Source: a virus (lineage: Duplodnaviria > Heunggongvirae > Uroviricota > Caudoviricetes). From it: 9,552 bases of DNA. The stretch's first letter is position 1. Each line of letters starts with the position of its first letter. This document shows, one piece after another, positions 518-8,289 of this stretch. The translations under genes and the position numbers were made by a program. The notes under the pieces are model-generated. The model was given only the letters and a program-made list of their open reading frames with translations. It did not search any database and was not told where the DNA came from. The stretch is from IMG/VR virus record IMGVR_UViG_3300014922_000029; one strand, written 5' to 3'.

Positions 518-1057
518 TTATCTGTCGATTCCCCAGCACACCAGCGCGCTCTCCTGGTCACGACGGAATACCTGACCGTAGCAGTTATTTGAGCGAATAC
601 GGCAGTCTCTGCCACCGTCCTTAATCCACCAGCGAATCGCCTCACATGCTCCANNNNNNNNNNNNNNNNNNNNNNNNNNNNNNNNNNNNNNNNNNNNNNN
701 NNNNNNNNNNNNNNNNNNNNNNNNNNNNNNNNNNNNNNNNNNNNNNNNNNNNNNNNNNNNNNNNNTCAGCGGCACTCTGATGTTTTTCTCCACCCACGCC
801 AGCGCTTTATCACGCTCAATGGCGTTAACCCGGTCGCATTTTCCCTTCGACAGCTTCATGCCAGGAATAACAGGCTTACCATCCACCCGGGTGGCTCCAC
901 GGCAGATGGTCCAGATCCCCGCACCATCACGGTATGCCATGGTGTGGTTACCTTCTTTTTCGTCAAGAAACTGGTCGAGGATTTCAGGCGCAGACGCCCC
1001 TGCACCAATCAGCGCCAGAACGGCAGCCGACAGGCCGTATCTGATTTTTGCGTTCAT
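518..1057 (-). CDS. R: Phage endolysin, T4-lysozyme-like muramidase with N-terminal SAR (signal-anchor-release) domain; resembles the Qin prophage lysozyme RrrQ/YdfQ
   Basis: 179-aa ORF with ATG at 1057. N-terminus MNAKIRYGLSAAVLALIGAGASAP is a Gly/Ala-rich weakly hydrophobic SAR-type segment, followed by the lysozyme core (EGNHTMAYRDGAGIWTICRGAT). It lies directly after a pinholin. The ORF spans the N run 654-765 in frame, so the central part is unknown. Confidence 0.8.
   Translation of the reverse strand: MNAKIRYGLSAAVLALIGAGASAPEILDQFLDEKEGNHTMAYRDGAGIWTICRGATRVDGKPVIPGMKLSKGKCDRVNAIERDKALAWVEKNIRVPLXXXXXXXXXXXXXXXXXXXXXXXXXXXXXXXXXXXXXXGACEAIRWWIKDGGRDCRIRSNNCYGQVFRRDQESALVCWGIDR
654..765. 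other. Run of 112 N (assembly gap or masked sequence) inside the endolysin gene
   Basis: Literal n characters in the sequence. Confidence 1.
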
Positions 1058-4586: not shown

Positions 4587-4616
4587 NNNNNNNNNNNNNN
4601 NNNNNNNNNNNNNNNN
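4587..4616. other. Run of 30 N (gap or masked sequence) in the non-coding stretch
   Basis: Literal n characters in the sequence. Confidence 1.
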
Positions 4617-4885
4617 AGAAAGCCCCTCCGGAGAGGGGCTGGAGAGTGGCGCTATGTGCCATTGCATGGTGCCGGGTGCCTCCCGGTGAGTTCAGCCCGG
4701 TGACACTAAACCCGCATATTCTCGCTTACGATCATCAAAGAGATCATACCGTTCACCAGTCGCCCCTCCGCACAGGGGGATTCACCATGCGAAATTTTTT
4801 TAACAAATGCTCAGTCTGACAGGCAACTGTCAACTTACTGAATTGTGAGGAATTTAACACTTCACAGCACAATATCTTTCCAGCG

Positions 4886-4927
4886 CCCCAAAATCATCAG
4901 GACAGGAGAAAATCTTCTCCCCCTGTC
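4886..4927 (-). terminator. Possible terminator hairpin overlapping the lipoprotein stop codon
   Basis: gacaggagaa (4901-4910) pairs with ttctcc(ccc)tgtc (4915-4927) around loop aatc, with a 3-nt bulge. On the minus strand it is followed by an interrupted T-run (cugaugauuuugg). Weak. Confidence 0.3.
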
Positions 4928-5354
4928 AGAGTTTAAAATCCAGCACGCCATTTCTAAATGCTTTATATACTCCTGAAGACGGTGGTGATGGTATATCAGC
5001 ATTCTTTACTGCATTCATCGCTTCACGACATAAATCGGGATCACCGCTTTCTCTTTTAACCTGTAGCAGAAGACCATTCGGGGCCATATACATTCTCAGT
5101 GAACACTCTTTTCCTGAATACTTACTCGCATCCTTTAACTGTTCTTCTATGGCTTTCCTGACCTGAATGGCATACTGCCTGATTTCTTCACTGGCATCAG
5201 GGGTACGTTCCGATGAGCTCAAATTTTGCGACTTTATTAATTTATCTGAGTGATACAGAGAAGCATCATAATTATTTGTCGATACATCTTTTGTGCAGCC
5301 AGTTGTCAGACTGGCTAATATCAAAACAAGAACTGGTACAGCACGGCAATACAT
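4926..5354 (-). CDS. Lipoprotein with a TolA C-terminal (domain III)-like domain; predicted Lol-sorted outer-membrane lipoprotein
   Basis: 142-aa ORF; ATG at 5354 with GGAG Shine-Dalgarno about 9 nt upstream. Signal peptide MYCRAVPVLVLILASLTTGC with lipobox L-T-T-G-C and no Asp at +2. The C-terminal 85 residues (IRQYAIQVRKAIEEQLKDASKYSGKECSLRMYMAPNGLLLQVKRESGDPDLCREAMNAVKNADIPSPPSSGVYKAFRNGVLDFKL) align along their length with E. coli TolA domain III as I recall it (...YAGQIKSAIESKFYDASSYAGKTCTLRIKLAPDGMLLDIKPEGGDPALCQAALAAAKLAKIPKPPSQAVYEVFKNAPLDFKP). The gene and its upstream region are AT-rich relative to neighbours. Confidence 0.75.
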   Translation of the reverse strand: MYCRAVPVLVLILASLTTGCTKDVSTNNYDASLYHSDKLIKSQNLSSSERTPDASEEIRQYAIQVRKAIEEQLKDASKYSGKECSLRMYMAPNGLLLQVKRESGDPDLCREAMNAVKNADIPSPPSSGVYKAFRNGVLDFKL

Positions 5355-5632: not shown

Positions 5633-5709
5633 TGGACCGCCATCGAGGACTCGAACCCCGCGCAGCCAGCTTCGAAGGCTGGCGCTCTATCCCGATGAGC
5701 TAATGGCGG
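5633..5709 (-). tRNA. tRNA-Arg, anticodon UCG (reads CGA/CGG)
   Basis: Reverse complement folds as a cloverleaf by hand: acceptor ccgccat/atggcgg, D stem gctc/gagc, anticodon stem ccagc/gctgg with loop cuUCGaa, T arm cgggg-ttcgagt-cctcg, discriminator U, encoded CCA. Unusual C1:G72 first pair. Confidence 0.8.
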
Positions 5710-5718
5710 TATGTGATA

Positions 5719-5794
5719 TGGTGGCCCTTGCTGGATTTGAACCAGCGACCTGGCGATTATGAGTCGCTCGCTCTCACCACTGAGCTAAAGGGCC
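5719..5794 (-). tRNA. tRNA-Ile2 type (anticodon CAU, lysidine-modified in vivo; formally could be tRNA-Met)
   Basis: Reverse complement ggccctttagctcagtggtgagagcgagcgactCATaatcgccaggtcgctggttcaaatccagcaagggccacca folds as a canonical cloverleaf and is near-identical in layout to E. coli ileX-type tRNA as I remember it; encoded CCA. Stx-type phages carry an ileZ-arg tRNA cluster at this position. Confidence 0.85.
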
Positions 5795-5834: not shown

Positions 5835-6893
5835 TCATCCGTTCTGACTGACTAAATTCTGAACTTCCCTGACCGTCTGCTCAAAACGCTCAGTCTCCAG
5901 CTCAACGCCAGTTGCACGACGTCCCAGCGCTATCGCTGCTTTGACTGTCGAACCTGACCCCATGAAGAAATCTGCAACCAGGTCACCCGGACGACTGCTC
6001 GCGCTGATTATCTGCTGCAGCATTTCTGCCGGTTTTTCGCACGGATGTTTCCCGGGATAGTACTGCACCGGTTTATGCGTCCACACATCGGTGTACGGCA
6101 CCTGCACCGTCACACCAAAATACCGCCGCAGATGCTTATATTCACTCTGCAGTTCCGTATACTGCCGGTTCAGTTCACTGTATGTGCTGACCAGTTGGTG
6201 ATGTGGCTTTTCCAGTTCTCCGCGCTGATGCTTATCTTCTGCCACCCGGGCAAACAGCGCCTGTAATTTCAGATAATCGCTTTCGTCCGGTAGCTGCCAC
6301 TGGCTGGCACTGAACCAGTGCGACACCATGTTTTTCTTTCCTGTGGCATCAGCAATCTGTTTTGCCGTTATCCCCAGGGCAGCACGCGCATCACGAAAGT
6401 AAGAAATCAGCGGGGCCATCACATGCTGTTTCAGTGCCCTGCCCTTCGCCTCATACCCGGCATCTTTCGGGCGATACGGCCCCTGATAATGTTCCGCGAA
6501 CAGAATGCGCTCTGTGGCGGGGAAATATGCCCTCAGGCTTTCCTTGTTGCACCCGTTCCAGCGTCCGGACGGCTTCGCCCAGATAATATGGTTCAGCACA
6601 TTGAAGCGTTCACGCATCATGATTTCAATGTCAGACGCCAGGCGATGGCCACAGAACAGGTAAAGACTTCCGGCAGGTTTCAGCACCCGCCAGAACTGCG
6701 CAAGACACTGGTCCAGCCACTTCAGGTAATCATCGTCGCCCTTCCACTGGTTATCCCAGCCCTCAGGCTTCACTTTAAAGTACGGCGGGTCCGTGACTAT
6801 CAGGTCAACAGAATTTTCGGGTAACGACCGGATAAATTCCAGGCAGTCGGCGTTGATTAACTCACAACTGGATATTTTTACAGTACTAAGCAT
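5835..6893 (-). CDS. DNA methyltransferase, beta-class amino-methyltransferase (DPPY catalytic motif near the N-terminus, FxGxG SAM-binding motif near the C-terminus); most likely N6-adenine
   Basis: 352-aa ORF with VTDPPYF at residues about 33-39 and DFFMGSGST near residue 310; this motif order defines the beta group. No restriction endonuclease gene nearby, so an orphan methyltransferase. Shine-Dalgarno at the ATG (6893) is weak. Confidence 0.85.
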   Translation of the reverse strand: MLSTVKISSCELINADCLEFIRSLPENSVDLIVTDPPYFKVKPEGWDNQWKGDDDYLKWLDQCLAQFWRVLKPAGSLYLFCGHRLASDIEIMMRERFNVLNHIIWAKPSGRWNGCNKESLRAYFPATERILFAEHYQGPYRPKDAGYEAKGRALKQHVMAPLISYFRDARAALGITAKQIADATGKKNMVSHWFSASQWQLPDESDYLKLQALFARVAEDKHQRGELEKPHHQLVSTYSELNRQYTELQSEYKHLRRYFGVTVQVPYTDVWTHKPVQYYPGKHPCEKPAEMLQQIISASSRPGDLVADFFMGSGSTVKAAIALGRRATGVELETERFEQTVREVQNLVSQNG

Positions 6894-7027
6894 GGATCAT
6901 TAAGCCTGTCTCTGATAGGCTCATTCTGCTTTTGCGCAAAGCAGTGGGCCTGAGGTTTGCTTGTGATCCGGACGCATGAGCAGATGGCTGGTGAGTGCCC
7001 CTAACACCCACCAGCCGCCCATTTACC

Positions 7028-7057
7028 ACAAATAAAAAAGCCTTCAGGACTGAAGGC
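7028..7057 (-). terminator. Intrinsic terminator (minus strand) overlapping the 3' end of the small ORF, upstream of the methyltransferase
   Basis: gccttca (7040-7046) pairs with tgaaggc (7051-7057) around loop ggac. The minus-strand RNA hairpin is followed by uuuuuuauuu (complement of 7028-7039). Confidence 0.55.
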
Positions 7058-7241
7058 GTCTGTAACAACCGAACTGATAGTCTGCCAGCCCCGCCATAAC
7101 AAGCTGGGTCAGTATTAACTGGCAGCGTTCACGTGAAAGGTAAGTATTCTGCGCAATCTCCCCGACTGTCGCCGGTTCGGTGGCACTTAATTCATTAAAC
7201 ACCACTCTGGCGGTTTCGGTCATATCCTGCTGTTTCAGCAT
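7044..7241 (-). CDS. Hypothetical 65-aa protein, possibly winged-helix-like, located in the late-operon leader between two terminators
   Basis: ATG at 7241 with good Shine-Dalgarno (aagggaaaaagacATG). Sequence MLKQQDMTETARVVFNELSATEPATVGEIAQNTYLSRERCQLILTQLVMAGLADYQFGCYRRLQS. The longer track ORF from 7328 begins at a GTG without a Shine-Dalgarno. Fold assignment is a guess from the helix-turn pattern. Confidence 0.45.
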   Translation of the reverse strand: MLKQQDMTETARVVFNELSATEPATVGEIAQNTYLSRERCQLILTQLVMAGLADYQFGCYRRLQS

Positions 7242-7363
7242 GTCTTTTTCCCTTTTCCGGTTAACGTGACACACCAATAACTCTTGTCGAAAAAGCCAGC
7301 AAGCTGAAAGACAGGTATTCACCGCCACCAGCGCGTTTACTGTACTGACGCGATTTCAGTCAT

Positions 7364-7385
7364 AAAAAACCCGCCAGGCGGCGGG
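7364..7385 (-). terminator. tR'-like intrinsic terminator about 65 nt downstream of the late promoter
   Basis: cccgcc (7370-7375) pairs with ggcggg (7380-7385) around loop aggc. The minus-strand RNA hairpin is followed by uuuuuu (complement of 7364-7369). Confidence 0.7.
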
Positions 7386-7417
7386 GTGTAAAAAATCTTC
7401 TAACGTCAGGCATAAAA

Positions 7418-7462
7418 CGCCCATCATTAGGGCAAATTTACCACAGATTCGGGAAAAATCAA
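7418..7462 (-). promoter_or_regulatory. Late promoter pR' with qut-like pause element (the Q engagement site)
   Basis: Minus-strand sequence just 3' of the Q stop: TTGATT (-35, 7462..7457), 16-bp spacer, TAAATT (-10, 7440..7435), then tgccctAATGATGGGCG. Lambda pR' has -10 TAAATT followed by tgactcaACGATGGGTT (from memory); the -10 hexamer and the downstream GATGGG core are shared. Predicted start near 7427. Confidence 0.6.
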
Positions 7463-7467
7463 CAAAG

Positions 7468-8289
7468 CTATCTGGTCACCTTTTTCAGTTGTTGTTCTGC
7501 CCATGCTTCTTCAATATCAAACTGCACCACCAGCGTATCGTAAAAACGTTTAACTGTTTTTTTCCATGTATCAAGAGATATGGCATCGGTTACATTACAT
7601 ATGGCATTAAATGCCTCCGTTGAAGGTAATCTTTCATAGCCACGCCCACCACAACGCTGACAGTTTCTGAAAACCGGCACACCCTGTTTTTCCGACTCTT
7701 CACGATGAATGGCAACACCGCGCCCACGACAATCTTTACAGGCAGTGGATACCTCTCCCTTCCCTCCACACTCCGGACAGGCAACTTTTACCACCTCCCT
7801 GACTTTTTTCCATTCCTCCCAGTAAGACGGATACACGCCTTTTGTGCACTTTGCCCACACTGGCGGCTTACCATCCGGATACTGGATCTTGTTTGTAAAA
7901 ACCTCGCTTTCAATAAATTTTTTTCCGTGACAGCAGGGGCACTGTTTTTTGCTCGCCGCGCTACGGGCATAATCTTCAAACGCATACGAAGCCATAATAC
8001 GCATCACTGCCGGTTTTATTTCTGCCGGGAGTTTTCTTAACGCCGCCACGCGATCACACCGACTGAGTGCATATTCTGTCAGCAATTCTGTTGCCCGCTC
8101 TCTGTCATTCATACTAATGCCCATTTTCCCAAGGAACGCAGAAAACCCCATCTCAGCCCGATTCTGTGTCATGCCCTGCGCGGCCATCACATCAGTGATA
8201 CTCAGCGCATCTTTCGACGTTGAGGCCGATGCATCAGTCAGGCCGGGGGATTTTGGGGAGTAGTATTTCGGTAAATCTTCCAGTTTCAT
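7468..8289 (-). CDS. Q: Late-gene antitermination protein Q (larger Q type with several CxxC zinc-binding motifs, QuuQ-like)
   Basis: 273-aa ORF. N-terminal MKLEDLPKYYSPKSP...ITDVMAAQGM resembles prophage Q antiterminators as I recall them. CxxC pairs CPCCHG, CPECGG, CKDCRG, CQRCGG. Sits immediately upstream of the pR'/qut-like promoter and tR'. Start overlaps the rusA stop (ATGA). Confidence 0.8.
   Translation of the reverse strand: MKLEDLPKYYSPKSPGLTDASASTSKDALSITDVMAAQGMTQNRAEMGFSAFLGKMGISMNDRERATELLTEYALSRCDRVAALRKLPAEIKPAVMRIMASYAFEDYARSAASKKQCPCCHGKKFIESEVFTNKIQYPDGKPPVWAKCTKGVYPSYWEEWKKVREVVKVACPECGGKGEVSTACKDCRGRGVAIHREESEKQGVPVFRNCQRCGGRGYERLPSTEAFNAICNVTDAISLDTWKKTVKRFYDTLVVQFDIEEAWAEQQLKKVTR

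What the first reader, a model, noticed from the sequence alone, without database searches (positions are those of the whole stretch)
7028..7467. Lambda-like pR'/qut and short tR' leader, followed by a translated small ORF bracketed by two terminators
Directly 3' of Q is a sigma70 promoter (TTGATT, 16 bp, TAAATT) followed by AATGATGGGCG, which resembles the lambda pR' pause-inducing qut element. An intrinsic terminator sits about 65 nt downstream, so without Q the promoter would make a short 6S-like RNA. Unlike lambda, the next unit is a well-initiated 65-aa ORF that ends inside a second terminator hairpin (7028-7057) before the methyltransferase. A protein-coding gene nested between tR' and a second terminator suggests either a Q-dependent regulator or a double-lock on late transcription.
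Basis: partly seen in the sequence, partly recalled or inferred. Interest (0 to 1): 0.55.

Follow-up and report, generated by a model that had tools for sequence, protein, structure and literature searches.

The report
Lambda-type late switch plus methylase cassette
This is the late-gene on/off switch of a lambda-like E. coli prophage (promoter, pause site and terminator read through only with Q), followed by a widespread cassette of a small DNA-binding-type protein, a folded RNA leader and a DNA methylase; the switch is ordinary, the folded leader is not in Rfam 15.

Summary

**The switch.** Q (8289-7468) is a full-length homologue of lambda Q. It is followed by TTGATT-16 bp-TAAATT, then AATGATGGG at the predicted +1 (7428), then a strong intrinsic terminator (7385-7364). 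Without Q this should give an RNA of about 63 nt. The promoter/pause layout occurs in 57 of 65 related loci with a lambda-type Q. The pause motif occurs in only 3 of 117 loci with other Q types.

**The small ORF.** The 65-aa ORF (7241-7044) is a real gene (dN/dS about 0.15). It has a winged-helix fold and belongs to phrog_331, function unknown.

The upstream terminator, the ORF and the methylase travel together as one cassette behind three unrelated Q families. The "second terminator" has a T-tract in only about 40% of loci.

**What is conserved instead.** A roughly 145-nt RNA leader (7029-6885) shows covariation, is not in Rfam 15, and pairs the methylase start codon.

**Verdict.** The switch is a new member of a known kind. 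The leader RNA, and a possible Com/mom-like control of the methylase, are the only novel angle.

The parts
7468..8289 (-). Q antiterminator, 273 aa. Lambda-Q family, with a roughly 68-aa insertion (residues 114-181) that carries extra CxxC pairs.
   Evidence: Pfam PF03589, E 5e-52. Matches PDB 7ubm (lambda Q) over residues 1-113 and 182-273, E 1e-41. phrog_127.
7435..7462 (-). pR' promoter: -35 TTGATT (7462-7457), 16-bp spacer, -10 TAAATT (7440-7435).
   Evidence: Same -10 as lambda pR'. The same layout is found in 57 of 65 loci with a lambda-type Q. Activity is inferred, not shown.
7420..7428 (-). AATGATGGG, a -10-like sigma70-dependent pause-inducing element (qut core). Predicted transcription start at 7428.
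   Evidence: Lambda has AACGATGGG at the same distance from the -10. The pattern is unique in the window, 0.01 expected. It is absent from 114 of 117 loci with non-lambda Q.
7364..7428 (-). Predicted short leader RNA of about 63 nt, made when Q is absent: a 5' stem-loop, an A/U-rich linker, then the terminator hairpin.
   Evidence: Fold -20.1 kcal/mol, z -2.4. No Rfam family. The 116-nt segment is present in 1659 of 5426 complete E. coli genomes and is unannotated.
7364..7385 (-). tR' intrinsic terminator: 6 G-C pairs, 4-nt loop, U6.
   Evidence: A terminator starts 104-150 nt upstream of the small-ORF ATG in 221 of 241 related loci, with 67 different hairpin sequences. It marks the left edge of the shared cassette.
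7266..7303 (-). Conserved leader motif CTTGCTG-N10-CAAGAGTTATTGGTGTGTCAC. Candidate internal promoter or operator; role unknown.
   Evidence: Nearly invariant from E. coli to Proteus while the flanks vary. The RNA of 7363-7236 is not unusually structured, z -0.6. As a sigma70 promoter it scores poorly: TTGCTG-17-TATTGG has G at -7.
7044..7241 (-). 65-aa winged-helix protein gene (phrog_331). NCBI names it 'TrmB family transcriptional regulator'.
   Evidence: phrog_331, E 2e-37. Pfam TrmB is below its cut-off, 19.1 against 25.6 bits. AF2 model pLDDT 77, H-H-H-E-E. Foldseek hits are MarR, Rrf2 and IclR DNA-binding domains. dN/dS about 0.15. The start at MLKQQDM is conserved.
7034..7057 (-). Hairpin overlapping the stop codon, plus T6: a terminator-like 't2'.
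   Evidence: A hairpin with the stop codon inside it is kept through compensatory changes in many genera. The T-tract is present in only 96 of 242 loci, and the hairpin is absent from the Proteus-type group.
6885..7029 (-). Conserved structured leader RNA of the methylase gene. Domain 1: helix P1a (7022-7017 with 6981-6976) and hairpin P2 (7016-6986). Domain 2: closing helix 6968-6959 with 6906-6894, which runs up to the AUG at 6893.
   Evidence: RNAalifold. Pair counts: 95.5% paired against 27-44% when partners are slid. On the CM alignment of 84 distinct sequences: 94.6% paired, 17 of 37 pairs changed on both sides, 0 of 500 shuffles as high. Window MFE -62.3 kcal/mol, z -4.7, AUG paired. 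Not in Rfam 15.
5835..6893 (-). DNA methyltransferase (N6_N4_Mtase, DPPY motif). Its start has no Shine-Dalgarno sequence.
   Evidence: Pfam PF01555, E 1e-43. PADLOC MTase_II. It follows the small ORF at a fixed 143-154 nt in 19 of 21 species-level loci.

Best explanation
The region is the late-gene switch of a lambdoid prophage, followed by the first late cassette.

**1. The switch.** RNA polymerase starts at pR' (7462-7435, +1 near 7428). Sigma70 re-binds the -10-like AATGAT(GGG) in the initial transcribed region and pauses, as at lambda pR'. If Q has not been made, the polymerase terminates at tR' (7385-7364), leaving an RNA of about 63 nt. If Q, a lambda-Q homologue, has been made, it loads onto the paused complex. 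The polymerase then reads through tR' and every later terminator.

**2. The cassette.** The first late unit is a cassette that moves between phages as one piece:
- its own upstream terminator;
- a conserved leader motif;
- a 65-aa winged-helix protein;
- a hairpin around that protein's stop codon, which in this E. coli version also carries a U-tract and can act as a second terminator;
- a roughly 145-nt folded leader RNA that buries the start codon of a DNA methyltransferase.

**What is shown.** Homology of Q; the sequence layout and its specific association with lambda-type Q; conservation of a terminator at that place; purifying selection on the ORF; covariation in the leader RNA.

**What is inferred.** Promoter activity, pausing, Q-dependent read-through, and that the leader RNA restrains methylase translation until something opens it.
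For: **Q**
- Pfam PF03589.
- Matches lambda Q (PDB 7ubm) over its full length.

**Promoter and pause core**
- Window TAAATTTGCCCTAATGATGGG against lambda TAAATTTGACTCAACGATGGG.
- The pattern is expected 0.01 times in the window.
- Seven lambda-type-Q loci from different genera keep TTGnnn-N16-17-TAnnnT-N6-7-AAYGnTGGG while the flanks differ.
- Across 243 loci, 57 of 65 with lambda-type Q have this layout. Only 3 of 117 with other Q types have the pause motif.

**Terminators**
- Found by the scan and stable on folding.
- 221 of 241 loci have a terminator 104-150 nt upstream of the small ORF, with 67 distinct hairpins.

**Cassette**
- Mosaic boundary at the tR' hairpin.
- Three Pfam Q families are found upstream.
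- The methylase lies at a fixed 143-154 nt spacing in 19 of 21 loci.

**ORF**
- dN/dS about 0.15.
- phrog_331.
- Winged-helix model.

**Leader RNA**
-.
Against: - There is no transcript, pause or read-through data for this locus.
- The generic promoter scan does not list pR', which scores 8 of 12.
- The spacer between -35 and -10, where lambda Q binds DNA, differs from lambda's. Q has a 68-aa insertion. Recognition therefore cannot be assumed identical.
- Much of the RNA covariation separates two clades (E. coli-type against Proteus-type). The number of independent events is smaller than the cell counts suggest.
- The CM alignment is fitted to the structure.
- An alternative helix, P3 (A6 columns 115-123 with 137-145), also covaries and is incompatible with part of the consensus fold.
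- Nothing links the small protein to the RNA or to the methylase except conserved adjacency. Some E. coli phages carry the small ORF without the methylase.
Confidence: 0.78

Rival explanations
1. The small ORF is an autonomous 'moron'. Its own weak promoter, the conserved TTGCTG-17-TATTGG motif at 7302-7274, would drive it in the lysogen independently of Q. The two flanking terminators would insulate it from the late operon.
For: - It has the classic moron layout: terminator, gene, terminator.
- The mosaic edges sit at the terminators.
- A roughly 40-nt motif with an invariant TTG, then 19-20 nt, then an invariant TA is conserved from E. coli to Proteus, 40-75 nt before the ATG.
- The leader RNA is not structured, z -0.6. 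The motif is therefore more likely read as DNA.
Against: - The -10-like hexamer always ends in G instead of T (TATTGG, TATCTG, TACATG). It scores 6 of 12 or less and is not found by the scan.
- No transcript data exist.
- This reading does not exclude Q-dependent expression as well.
Confidence: 0.3
2. The short pR'-tR' transcript is itself a trans-acting small RNA. This would parallel StxS, which is made from the prematurely terminated pR' transcript of Stx phages.
For: - Precedent: PMC7547250.
- The predicted RNA has an sRNA-like build: a 5' stem-loop, an A/U-rich linker, then a terminator with a U-tail.
- The segment is kept at 95% identity or more in about 1350 complete E. coli genomes.
Against: - No sequence similarity to any Rfam sRNA.
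- StxS goes with the 144-aa Q family, not this one.
- The leader sequence differs between lambda-type-Q loci of different genera. Only the pause core is kept.
- No Hfq or target data exist.
- HnrS, a 66-nt multicopy prophage sRNA (PMC13502914), could not be compared because its sequence is not in the text held here. Its distribution, 99% EHEC/EPEC, differs from this leader's.
Confidence: 0.2
3. The two terminators form a 'double lock'. Polymerases that leak through tR' without Q are stopped at 7057-7034, before the methylase, tRNA and lysis genes.
For: - In this window the second hairpin has a 7-bp stem and U6, and is more stable than all 200 shuffles.
- The same arrangement is found in 96 of 242 related loci.
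Against: - The U-tract is degenerate (UUUCUGCUG) or missing in most genera. The hairpin is absent from the Proteus-type group.
- The stop codon lies inside the hairpin, so a terminating ribosome would melt it.
- The stem has only 4 G-C pairs.
Confidence: 0.35
4. The pattern is a chance resemblance and the ORF is not a gene.
For: The generic promoter scan found nothing. The Pfam hit of the ORF is below its cut-off.
Against: - Pattern expectation is 0.01.
- The pattern is specifically associated with lambda-type Q.
- dN/dS is about 0.15.
- The ORF family has 341 protein clusters at 90% identity.
Confidence: 0.02

Closest known systems
Phage lambda late switch: Q, pR', qut, tR' and 6S RNA
   Same: - Q is homologous over its whole length.
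- Identical -10, TAAATT.
- A -10-like pause element followed by GGG at +1 to +9.
- An intrinsic terminator downstream that gives a short constitutive RNA.
   Different: - -35 is TTGATT with a 16-bp spacer, against TTGACT with 17 bp.
- The spacer, which is the Q-binding DNA in lambda, differs in sequence.
- The leader is about 63 nt against 194 nt.
- Q carries a 68-aa zinc-ribbon-like insertion.
- A gene cassette follows tR' at this locus. Lambda has no such cassette between tR' and the lysis gene S, only a relic of domain 1 of the leader RNA.
StxS small RNA of Stx1/Stx2a phages (Sy, Lan and Tree 2020, PMC7547250)
   Same: A constitutive pR' transcript, ended at tR' during lysogeny, leaves a short RNA.
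   Different: - StxS comes from a 258-nt transcript processed to 74 nt.
- It belongs to the 144-aa Q family.
- There is no sequence similarity.
- No function has been shown for the RNA here.
Phage Mu com-mom (established knowledge, recalled from memory, not tested here)
   Same: A small protein gene lies directly upstream of a late DNA-modification gene. That gene's translation start is buried in an mRNA hairpin.
   Different: - Com is a zinc-finger RNA-binding protein whose gene overlaps mom.
- Here the protein is a winged helix, 150 nt away.
- No RNA binding is shown.
- The enzyme is a methyltransferase, not Mom.
Controller (C) proteins of restriction-modification systems (established knowledge)
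   Same: A small helix-turn-helix protein is encoded next to a DNA-modification gene, with a conserved DNA motif upstream of its own gene.
   Different: - C proteins are Xre-type HTH dimers that bind palindromic C-boxes and time the endonuclease.
- Here there is no endonuclease.
- The motif is not palindromic.
- The fold is a winged helix.
Morons of lambdoid late operons (Hendrix and colleagues; established knowledge)
   Same: A small gene bracketed by transcription signals, inserted between Q and the lysis genes, with sharp mosaic edges.
   Different: A convincing promoter of its own is not evident. The upstream terminator doubles as tR'.

Membership tests
Lambda-type Q/qut late antitermination switch | A Q protein of the lambda family (PF03589) is encoded immediately upstream. 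| tested here: met
Lambda-type Q/qut late antitermination switch | A sigma70 promoter directly after Q. | tested here: inconclusive
   The sequence matches lambda's -10 exactly and the layout is conserved in 57 of 65 loci. It scores 8 of 12, below the scan's cut-off. Activity was not measured.
Lambda-type Q/qut late antitermination switch | A -10-like pause-inducing element in the initial transcribed region, followed by GGG. | tested here: met
   AATGATGGG lies at +1 to +9. It is specific to lambda-type-Q loci: 57 of 65 against 3 of 117.
Lambda-type Q/qut late antitermination switch | A Q-binding DNA element between -35 and -10. | not testable with these tools
   The spacers differ from lambda's. 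Only a loose AAW..TGG similarity is visible.
Lambda-type Q/qut late antitermination switch | An intrinsic terminator downstream that Q-modified polymerase reads through. | tested here: inconclusive
   The terminator is present and its position is conserved. Read-through cannot be tested here.
Intrinsic terminator (second hairpin, 7057-7034) | A G+C-rich hairpin followed by a U-tract, conserved as such. | tested here: inconclusive
   Met in this window. The U-tract is kept in only 96 of 242 loci.
TrmB / winged-helix transcription regulators | A Pfam TrmB score above the curated cut-off. | tested here: not met
   19.1 bits against a cut-off of 25.6. No NCBIfam model matches.
TrmB / winged-helix transcription regulators | A winged helix-turn-helix fold. 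| tested here: met
   AF2 model H-H-H-E-E, pLDDT 77. Foldseek TM 0.7-0.77 to OhrR, CymR and IclR DNA-binding domains, E about 5e-3.
Cis-regulatory structured RNA leader (for 7029-6885) | Helices kept through compensatory changes. | tested here: met
   17 of 37 pairs changed on both sides, 0 of 500 shuffles as high, 28-44% paired when partners are slid. There are 36 distinct P2 hairpins and all fold alike.
Cis-regulatory structured RNA leader (for 7029-6885) | An effect on expression of the downstream gene, or a ligand or protein partner. | not testable with these tools
   Only the pairing of the start region is seen.
Moron | A promoter of its own. | tested here: inconclusive
   The conserved TTG...TA motif is at the right distance, but its -10 is poor.
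StxS-like Hfq-binding sRNA | Sequence or family similarity to StxS or another known sRNA. | tested here: not met
   No Rfam hit near threshold. StxS is tied to a different Q family.

The most novel reading that the evidence does not exclude
The cassette behind tR' is a self-contained post-transcriptional timer for DNA methylation. The roughly 145-nt covarying leader RNA, a family absent from Rfam 15, locks the methylase start codon. The 65-aa winged-helix protein encoded just upstream, or the ribosome that translates it, opens the RNA. This would be analogous to Com acting on mom in phage Mu. Phage DNA would then be methylated only late in lytic growth. A relic of the RNA's first domain survives in lambda itself.
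Probability: 0.2. Interest if true: 0.65.

Novelty: new member of a known kind. Interest (0 to 1): 0.4.

Why it matters
**The switch.** It controls whatever lies downstream. In sister phages with the same cassette (phiP27, several Stx2a, Stx2d and Stx2k phages) that includes Shiga toxin genes. Knowing which Q/qut type and which terminators precede stx helps explain differences in toxin output between strains.

**The cassette.** It is very common. Part of the 621-nt region occurs in 2348 of 5426 complete E. coli genomes. It is annotated only as 'hypothetical protein' plus 'methyltransferase'.

**The leader RNA.** A conserved, covarying RNA that buries the methylase start is a concrete, testable case of translational control of a phage DNA-modification enzyme. 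It is also a candidate new RNA family.

Tried and rejected
- **Rfam.** Searched at gathering and at permissive thresholds. Nothing matched the leader RNA or the methylase leader.
- **Function of the small protein.** NCBIfam, PADLOC and PDB sequence searches gave no functional assignment. Foldseek gave only generic winged-helix matches. A whole-library HMMER search showed a narrow family of 66 clusters at 50% identity, with no characterised relative.
- **HnrS.** I tried to identify this 66-nt multicopy prophage sRNA with the leader RNA. Its sequence is not in the text held and no supplements are held. Its distribution differs, so I treat it as probably a different RNA.
- **TSS and Term-seq tables.** The tables of Sy et al. 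are not held.
- **Leader motif 7303-7266 as an RNA structure.** Rejected; the fold is no better than shuffles.
- **The motif as a promoter on the opposite strand, or a palindromic operator.** I read it by eye and found neither.
- **A coding reading of the methylase leader.** Rejected by eye. The 60-aa ORF 7068-6886 and a 33-aa ORF from the AUG in AAAUGGG are not kept in other genera. There is a stop after 7 codons, and 1-2-nt indels occur.
- **Helix UGGGC/GCCCA (P1b).** It never varies, so it is neither supported nor refuted.
Full report
**Setting.** All genes in the window lie on the minus strand. In transcription order they are:
- a DUF968/HNH protein, RusA and Q (8289-7468);
- the region in question;
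- a DNA methyltransferase (6893-5835);
- two tRNAs, a TolA-C-domain lipoprotein and an STnc100 sRNA;
- a NanS-p-type esterase, a holin and a lysozyme.

This is the Q-to-lysis segment of a lambdoid prophage. The closest record is a urinary E. coli chromosome at 99.8% identity. Sister phages with the same segment include phiP27 and several Stx2a, Stx2d and Stx2k phages. In these, stx follows the tRNAs.

**Observation.**
- -35 TTGATT at 7462-7457, a 16-bp spacer, and -10 TAAATT at 7440-7435.
- AATGATGGGCG at 7428-7418.
- A 6-G-C-pair hairpin with U6 at 7385-7364.
- A 65-codon ORF at 7241-7044, with AAGGG ending 8 nt before the ATG.
- A 7-bp hairpin with U6 at 7057-7034 that contains the stop codon.

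The terminator scan found five sites in 1 kb against 1.1 expected. The two minus-strand sites are these two, and both fold well. The generic promoter scan missed the promoter because it scores 8 of 12. The joint pattern TAAATT-N6-AAYGATGGG is expected only 0.01 times in the window.

**Is it a lambda-type pR'/qut?** Four results bear on this.
- Q matches Pfam PF03589. It also matches the solved lambda Q over residues 1-113 and 182-273. It is therefore lambda Q plus a 68-aa cysteine-rich insertion.
- From the -10 to +9 the DNA reads TAAATTTGCCCTAATGATGGG, against TAAATTTGACTCAACGATGGG in lambda.
- Seven lambda-type-Q loci from Escherichia, Pseudocitrobacter, Scandinavium, Phytobacter and Enterobacter, plus lambda itself, all keep TTGnnn, 16-17 bp, TAnnnT, 6-7 nt, AAYGnTGGG. 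Their flanks differ.
- I collected 243 loci through the small ORF. Of 65 with a lambda-type Q upstream, 57 have this layout. Of 117 with another Q type, only 3 have AAYGHTGGG anywhere between Q and the ORF.

This specific co-occurrence is the strongest evidence available without experiments that the motif is the pause/qut core used by this Q family. That sigma70 pauses there and that Q loads there follow from the established lambda mechanism. They are inferred, not shown.

**tR' and the short RNA.** From +1 at 7428 to the U-tract is about 63 nt. The RNA folds into a 5' stem-loop, an A/U-rich linker and the terminator hairpin. No Rfam family matches it. The 116-nt promoter-leader-terminator segment occurs in 1659 of 5426 complete E. 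coli genomes, with no annotated RNA. The precedent for such a by-product RNA gaining a function is StxS. StxS belongs to the 144-aa Q family and is unrelated in sequence. A 66-nt multicopy prophage sRNA, HnrS, has been described. I could not obtain its sequence. Its near-exclusive EHEC/EPEC distribution differs from this leader's, so I treat it as probably different.

**The small ORF.**
- It is a real gene. Among four phage copies, nearly all differences are synonymous.
- Nei-Gojobori ratios are 0.13-0.22 against close copies. The median is 0.15 (pN 0.10, pS 0.61) among 12 copies from different genera.
- The start MLKQQDM is conserved.
- It belongs to phrog_331, function unknown.
- The family has 341 clusters at 90% identity but only 66 at 50%. 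All are enterobacterial or from Morganellaceae.
- NCBI's name 'TrmB family' rests on a sub-threshold match.
- The AF2 model is a three-helix, two-strand winged helix. It resembles MarR, Rrf2 and IclR DNA-binding domains only generically.

**It is part of a cassette, not of the Q switch.**
- BLAST hits to other phages begin exactly at the tR' hairpin (window 7385). Upstream of that point the sequence depends on the Q allele.
- One genome per species gave 21 loci from about a dozen genera. Nearly all have a terminator 105-150 nt before the ATG, with unrelated hairpin sequences.
- In 19 of those 21 loci the same methyltransferase follows at 143-154 nt.
- Over 241 loci, 221 have the upstream terminator, with 67 distinct hairpins.
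- The gene upstream is a Q of any of three unrelated Pfam families: PF06530 in 89 loci, PF03589 in 65, PF06323 in 28.

The terminator therefore travels with the cassette and serves as tR' for whichever Q/qut module lies in front. This makes sense because Q specificity resides in the promoter region, not in the terminator.

**The 'second terminator' and what is really conserved.**
- A hairpin enclosing the stop codon is kept through compensatory changes in many genera. Examples are GCCTTC..GAAGGC, GCCTCC..GGGGGC and CTCCGC..GCGGAG.
- A T-tract follows it in only 96 of 242 loci, and the Proteus-type group has no hairpin at all.
- Because the stop codon lies inside the hairpin, a terminating ribosome would melt it (inference).

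What is conserved everywhere is the stretch from about 7029 to the methylase AUG at 6893. At the nucleotide level it is more conserved than the flanking genes. nhmmer finds it in 232 hits across 247 loci (87 distinct sequences). This includes loci behind small-ORF relatives of only 34% identity.

**Structure of the conserved leader RNA.** RNAalifold gives two domains.
- Domain 1 is helix P1a (AUGGGC with GCUCAU) closing a 12-bp hairpin, P2.
- Domain 2 is closed by GGAUCA.AAGC pairing with GCUU..UGAUCC, which runs up to the AUG. It encloses two inner helices.

On an unfitted MAFFT alignment of 32 sequences below 94% identity:
- 95.5% of cells are paired, against 27-44% when partners are slid;
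- 8 pairs change on both sides;
- no shuffle in 500 reaches the covariation score.

On a covariance-model alignment of 84 distinct sequences, which is fitted to the structure:
- 94.6% of cells are paired;
- 17 of 37 pairs change on both sides;
- 0 of 500 shuffles reach the observed value on any of the five measures.

The 36 distinct P2 sequences all fold into the same hairpin. The window's own sequence folds into the consensus at -62.3 kcal/mol (z -4.7), with the AUG paired. The methylase start has no Shine-Dalgarno sequence. No ORF is conserved in this stretch.

An alternative helix, P3, also covaries: column pair 117/143 shows C-G, U-A, A-U and U-G. It is incompatible with P1a and the closing helix. 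This hints at a switch but does not establish one. Much of the variation separates two clades, so independent events are fewer than the cell counts suggest.

**A relic in lambda.** The model also hits lambda itself at 45018-45135, upstream of S. Domain 1 is recognisable there with a fully compensated 10-bp hairpin (31 bits, E about 5e-7 in 1.5 kb). The Stx2k phage, which lacks the methylase, likewise keeps only domain 1.

**Leader of the small ORF.** CTTGCTG (7303-7297) and CAAGAGTTATTGGTGTGTCAC (7286-7266) form a motif that is almost invariant from E. coli to Proteus. The sequence between and around them varies. The RNA here is no more structured than shuffles, so the motif is probably read as DNA. 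Its geometry fits a promoter: TTG, 17-bp spacer, TA...G, then 25-30 nt to the ATG. The -10 always ends in G, which is poor for sigma70. It may instead be an operator, perhaps for the winged-helix protein itself. This is open.

**Mechanism and verdict.** The best-supported account is:
- a lambda-type late switch (constitutive pR', sigma-dependent pause, Q loading, tR');
- whose first downstream unit is a widespread mobile cassette;
- in which a small winged-helix protein precedes a methyltransferase whose translation start is locked in a conserved RNA fold.

Its 'double lock' is possible for this E. coli version but is not the conserved feature. 'Q-dependent regulator' remains a guess. The switch itself is an ordinary new member of a well-known kind. 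The leader RNA and its possible Com/mom-like relation to the small protein are the part worth an experiment.

Noticed in passing
window 6885-7029 (-): A roughly 145-nt conserved, covarying RNA leader lies between the small ORF and the methylase. It pairs the methylase start codon and is not in Rfam 15. It was found in 232 nhmmer hits across 247 related loci.
   Followed up: yes
L001 1219-1336 (phage lambda 45018-45135, + strand, upstream of S): Lambda carries a relic of domain 1 of that RNA (CM 31 bits). Its P2 hairpin is fully compensated over 10 bp (GGCAGGAGGT..ACCTCCTGCC), although lambda has neither the small ORF nor the methylase.
   Followed up: partly
window 7266-7303 (-): The motif CTTGCTG-N10-12-CAGAGTTAYNTGTRTG(T)CA is nearly invariant from E. 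coli to Proteus. It lies 40-75 nt before the small-ORF ATG and is not an RNA structure. It may be a weak internal promoter or an operator.
   Followed up: partly
window 7385 (left edge) and about 7004-6995: Mosaic junctions. Homology to phages with other Q alleles starts exactly at the tR' hairpin. In phages without the methylase (PhiR5_1, the Stx2k phage) it ends just after the second hairpin or after RNA domain 1.
   Followed up: partly
window 7747-7950 (-), Q residues 114-181: Relative to lambda Q, this Q has a 68-aa insertion with additional CxxC...CxxC pairs (DnaJ-CXXCXGXG-like). The long form is common; phrog_127 has a 253-position profile.
   Followed up: partly
window 4610-4819 (-): A full-length match to the Rfam sRNA STnc100 (168 bits) lies upstream of the NanS-p esterase gene. 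Its 3' end runs into a run of N.
   Followed up: no
window 654-765 and 4587-4616: Two runs of N (112 and 30 bases). The first interrupts the lysozyme gene. The second lies at the 3' end of STnc100.
   Followed up: no
window 5633-5794 and 4926-5354 (-): A tRNA pair is present: CAT anticodon, which RefSeq calls tRNA-Ile, and Arg-TCG. It is followed by a TolA-C-terminal-domain lipoprotein gene, at the place where stxAB sits in sister Stx phages.
   Followed up: no
L003 1200-2429 (phage phiP27): In phiP27 a GIY-YIG nuclease gene lies between the 82-type Q gene and the cassette's terminator. The last 40 nt or so before the terminator still match the Q-proximal leader of PhiR5_1. This looks like a homing-endonuclease insertion into the late leader.
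   Followed up: no
literature: PMC13502914: HnrS is a 66-nt Hfq-binding sRNA with three identical copies in the late regions of Sakai prophages Sp9, Sp10 and Sp12. It has the same size and build as the predicted pR'-tR' RNA here.
   Followed up: partly
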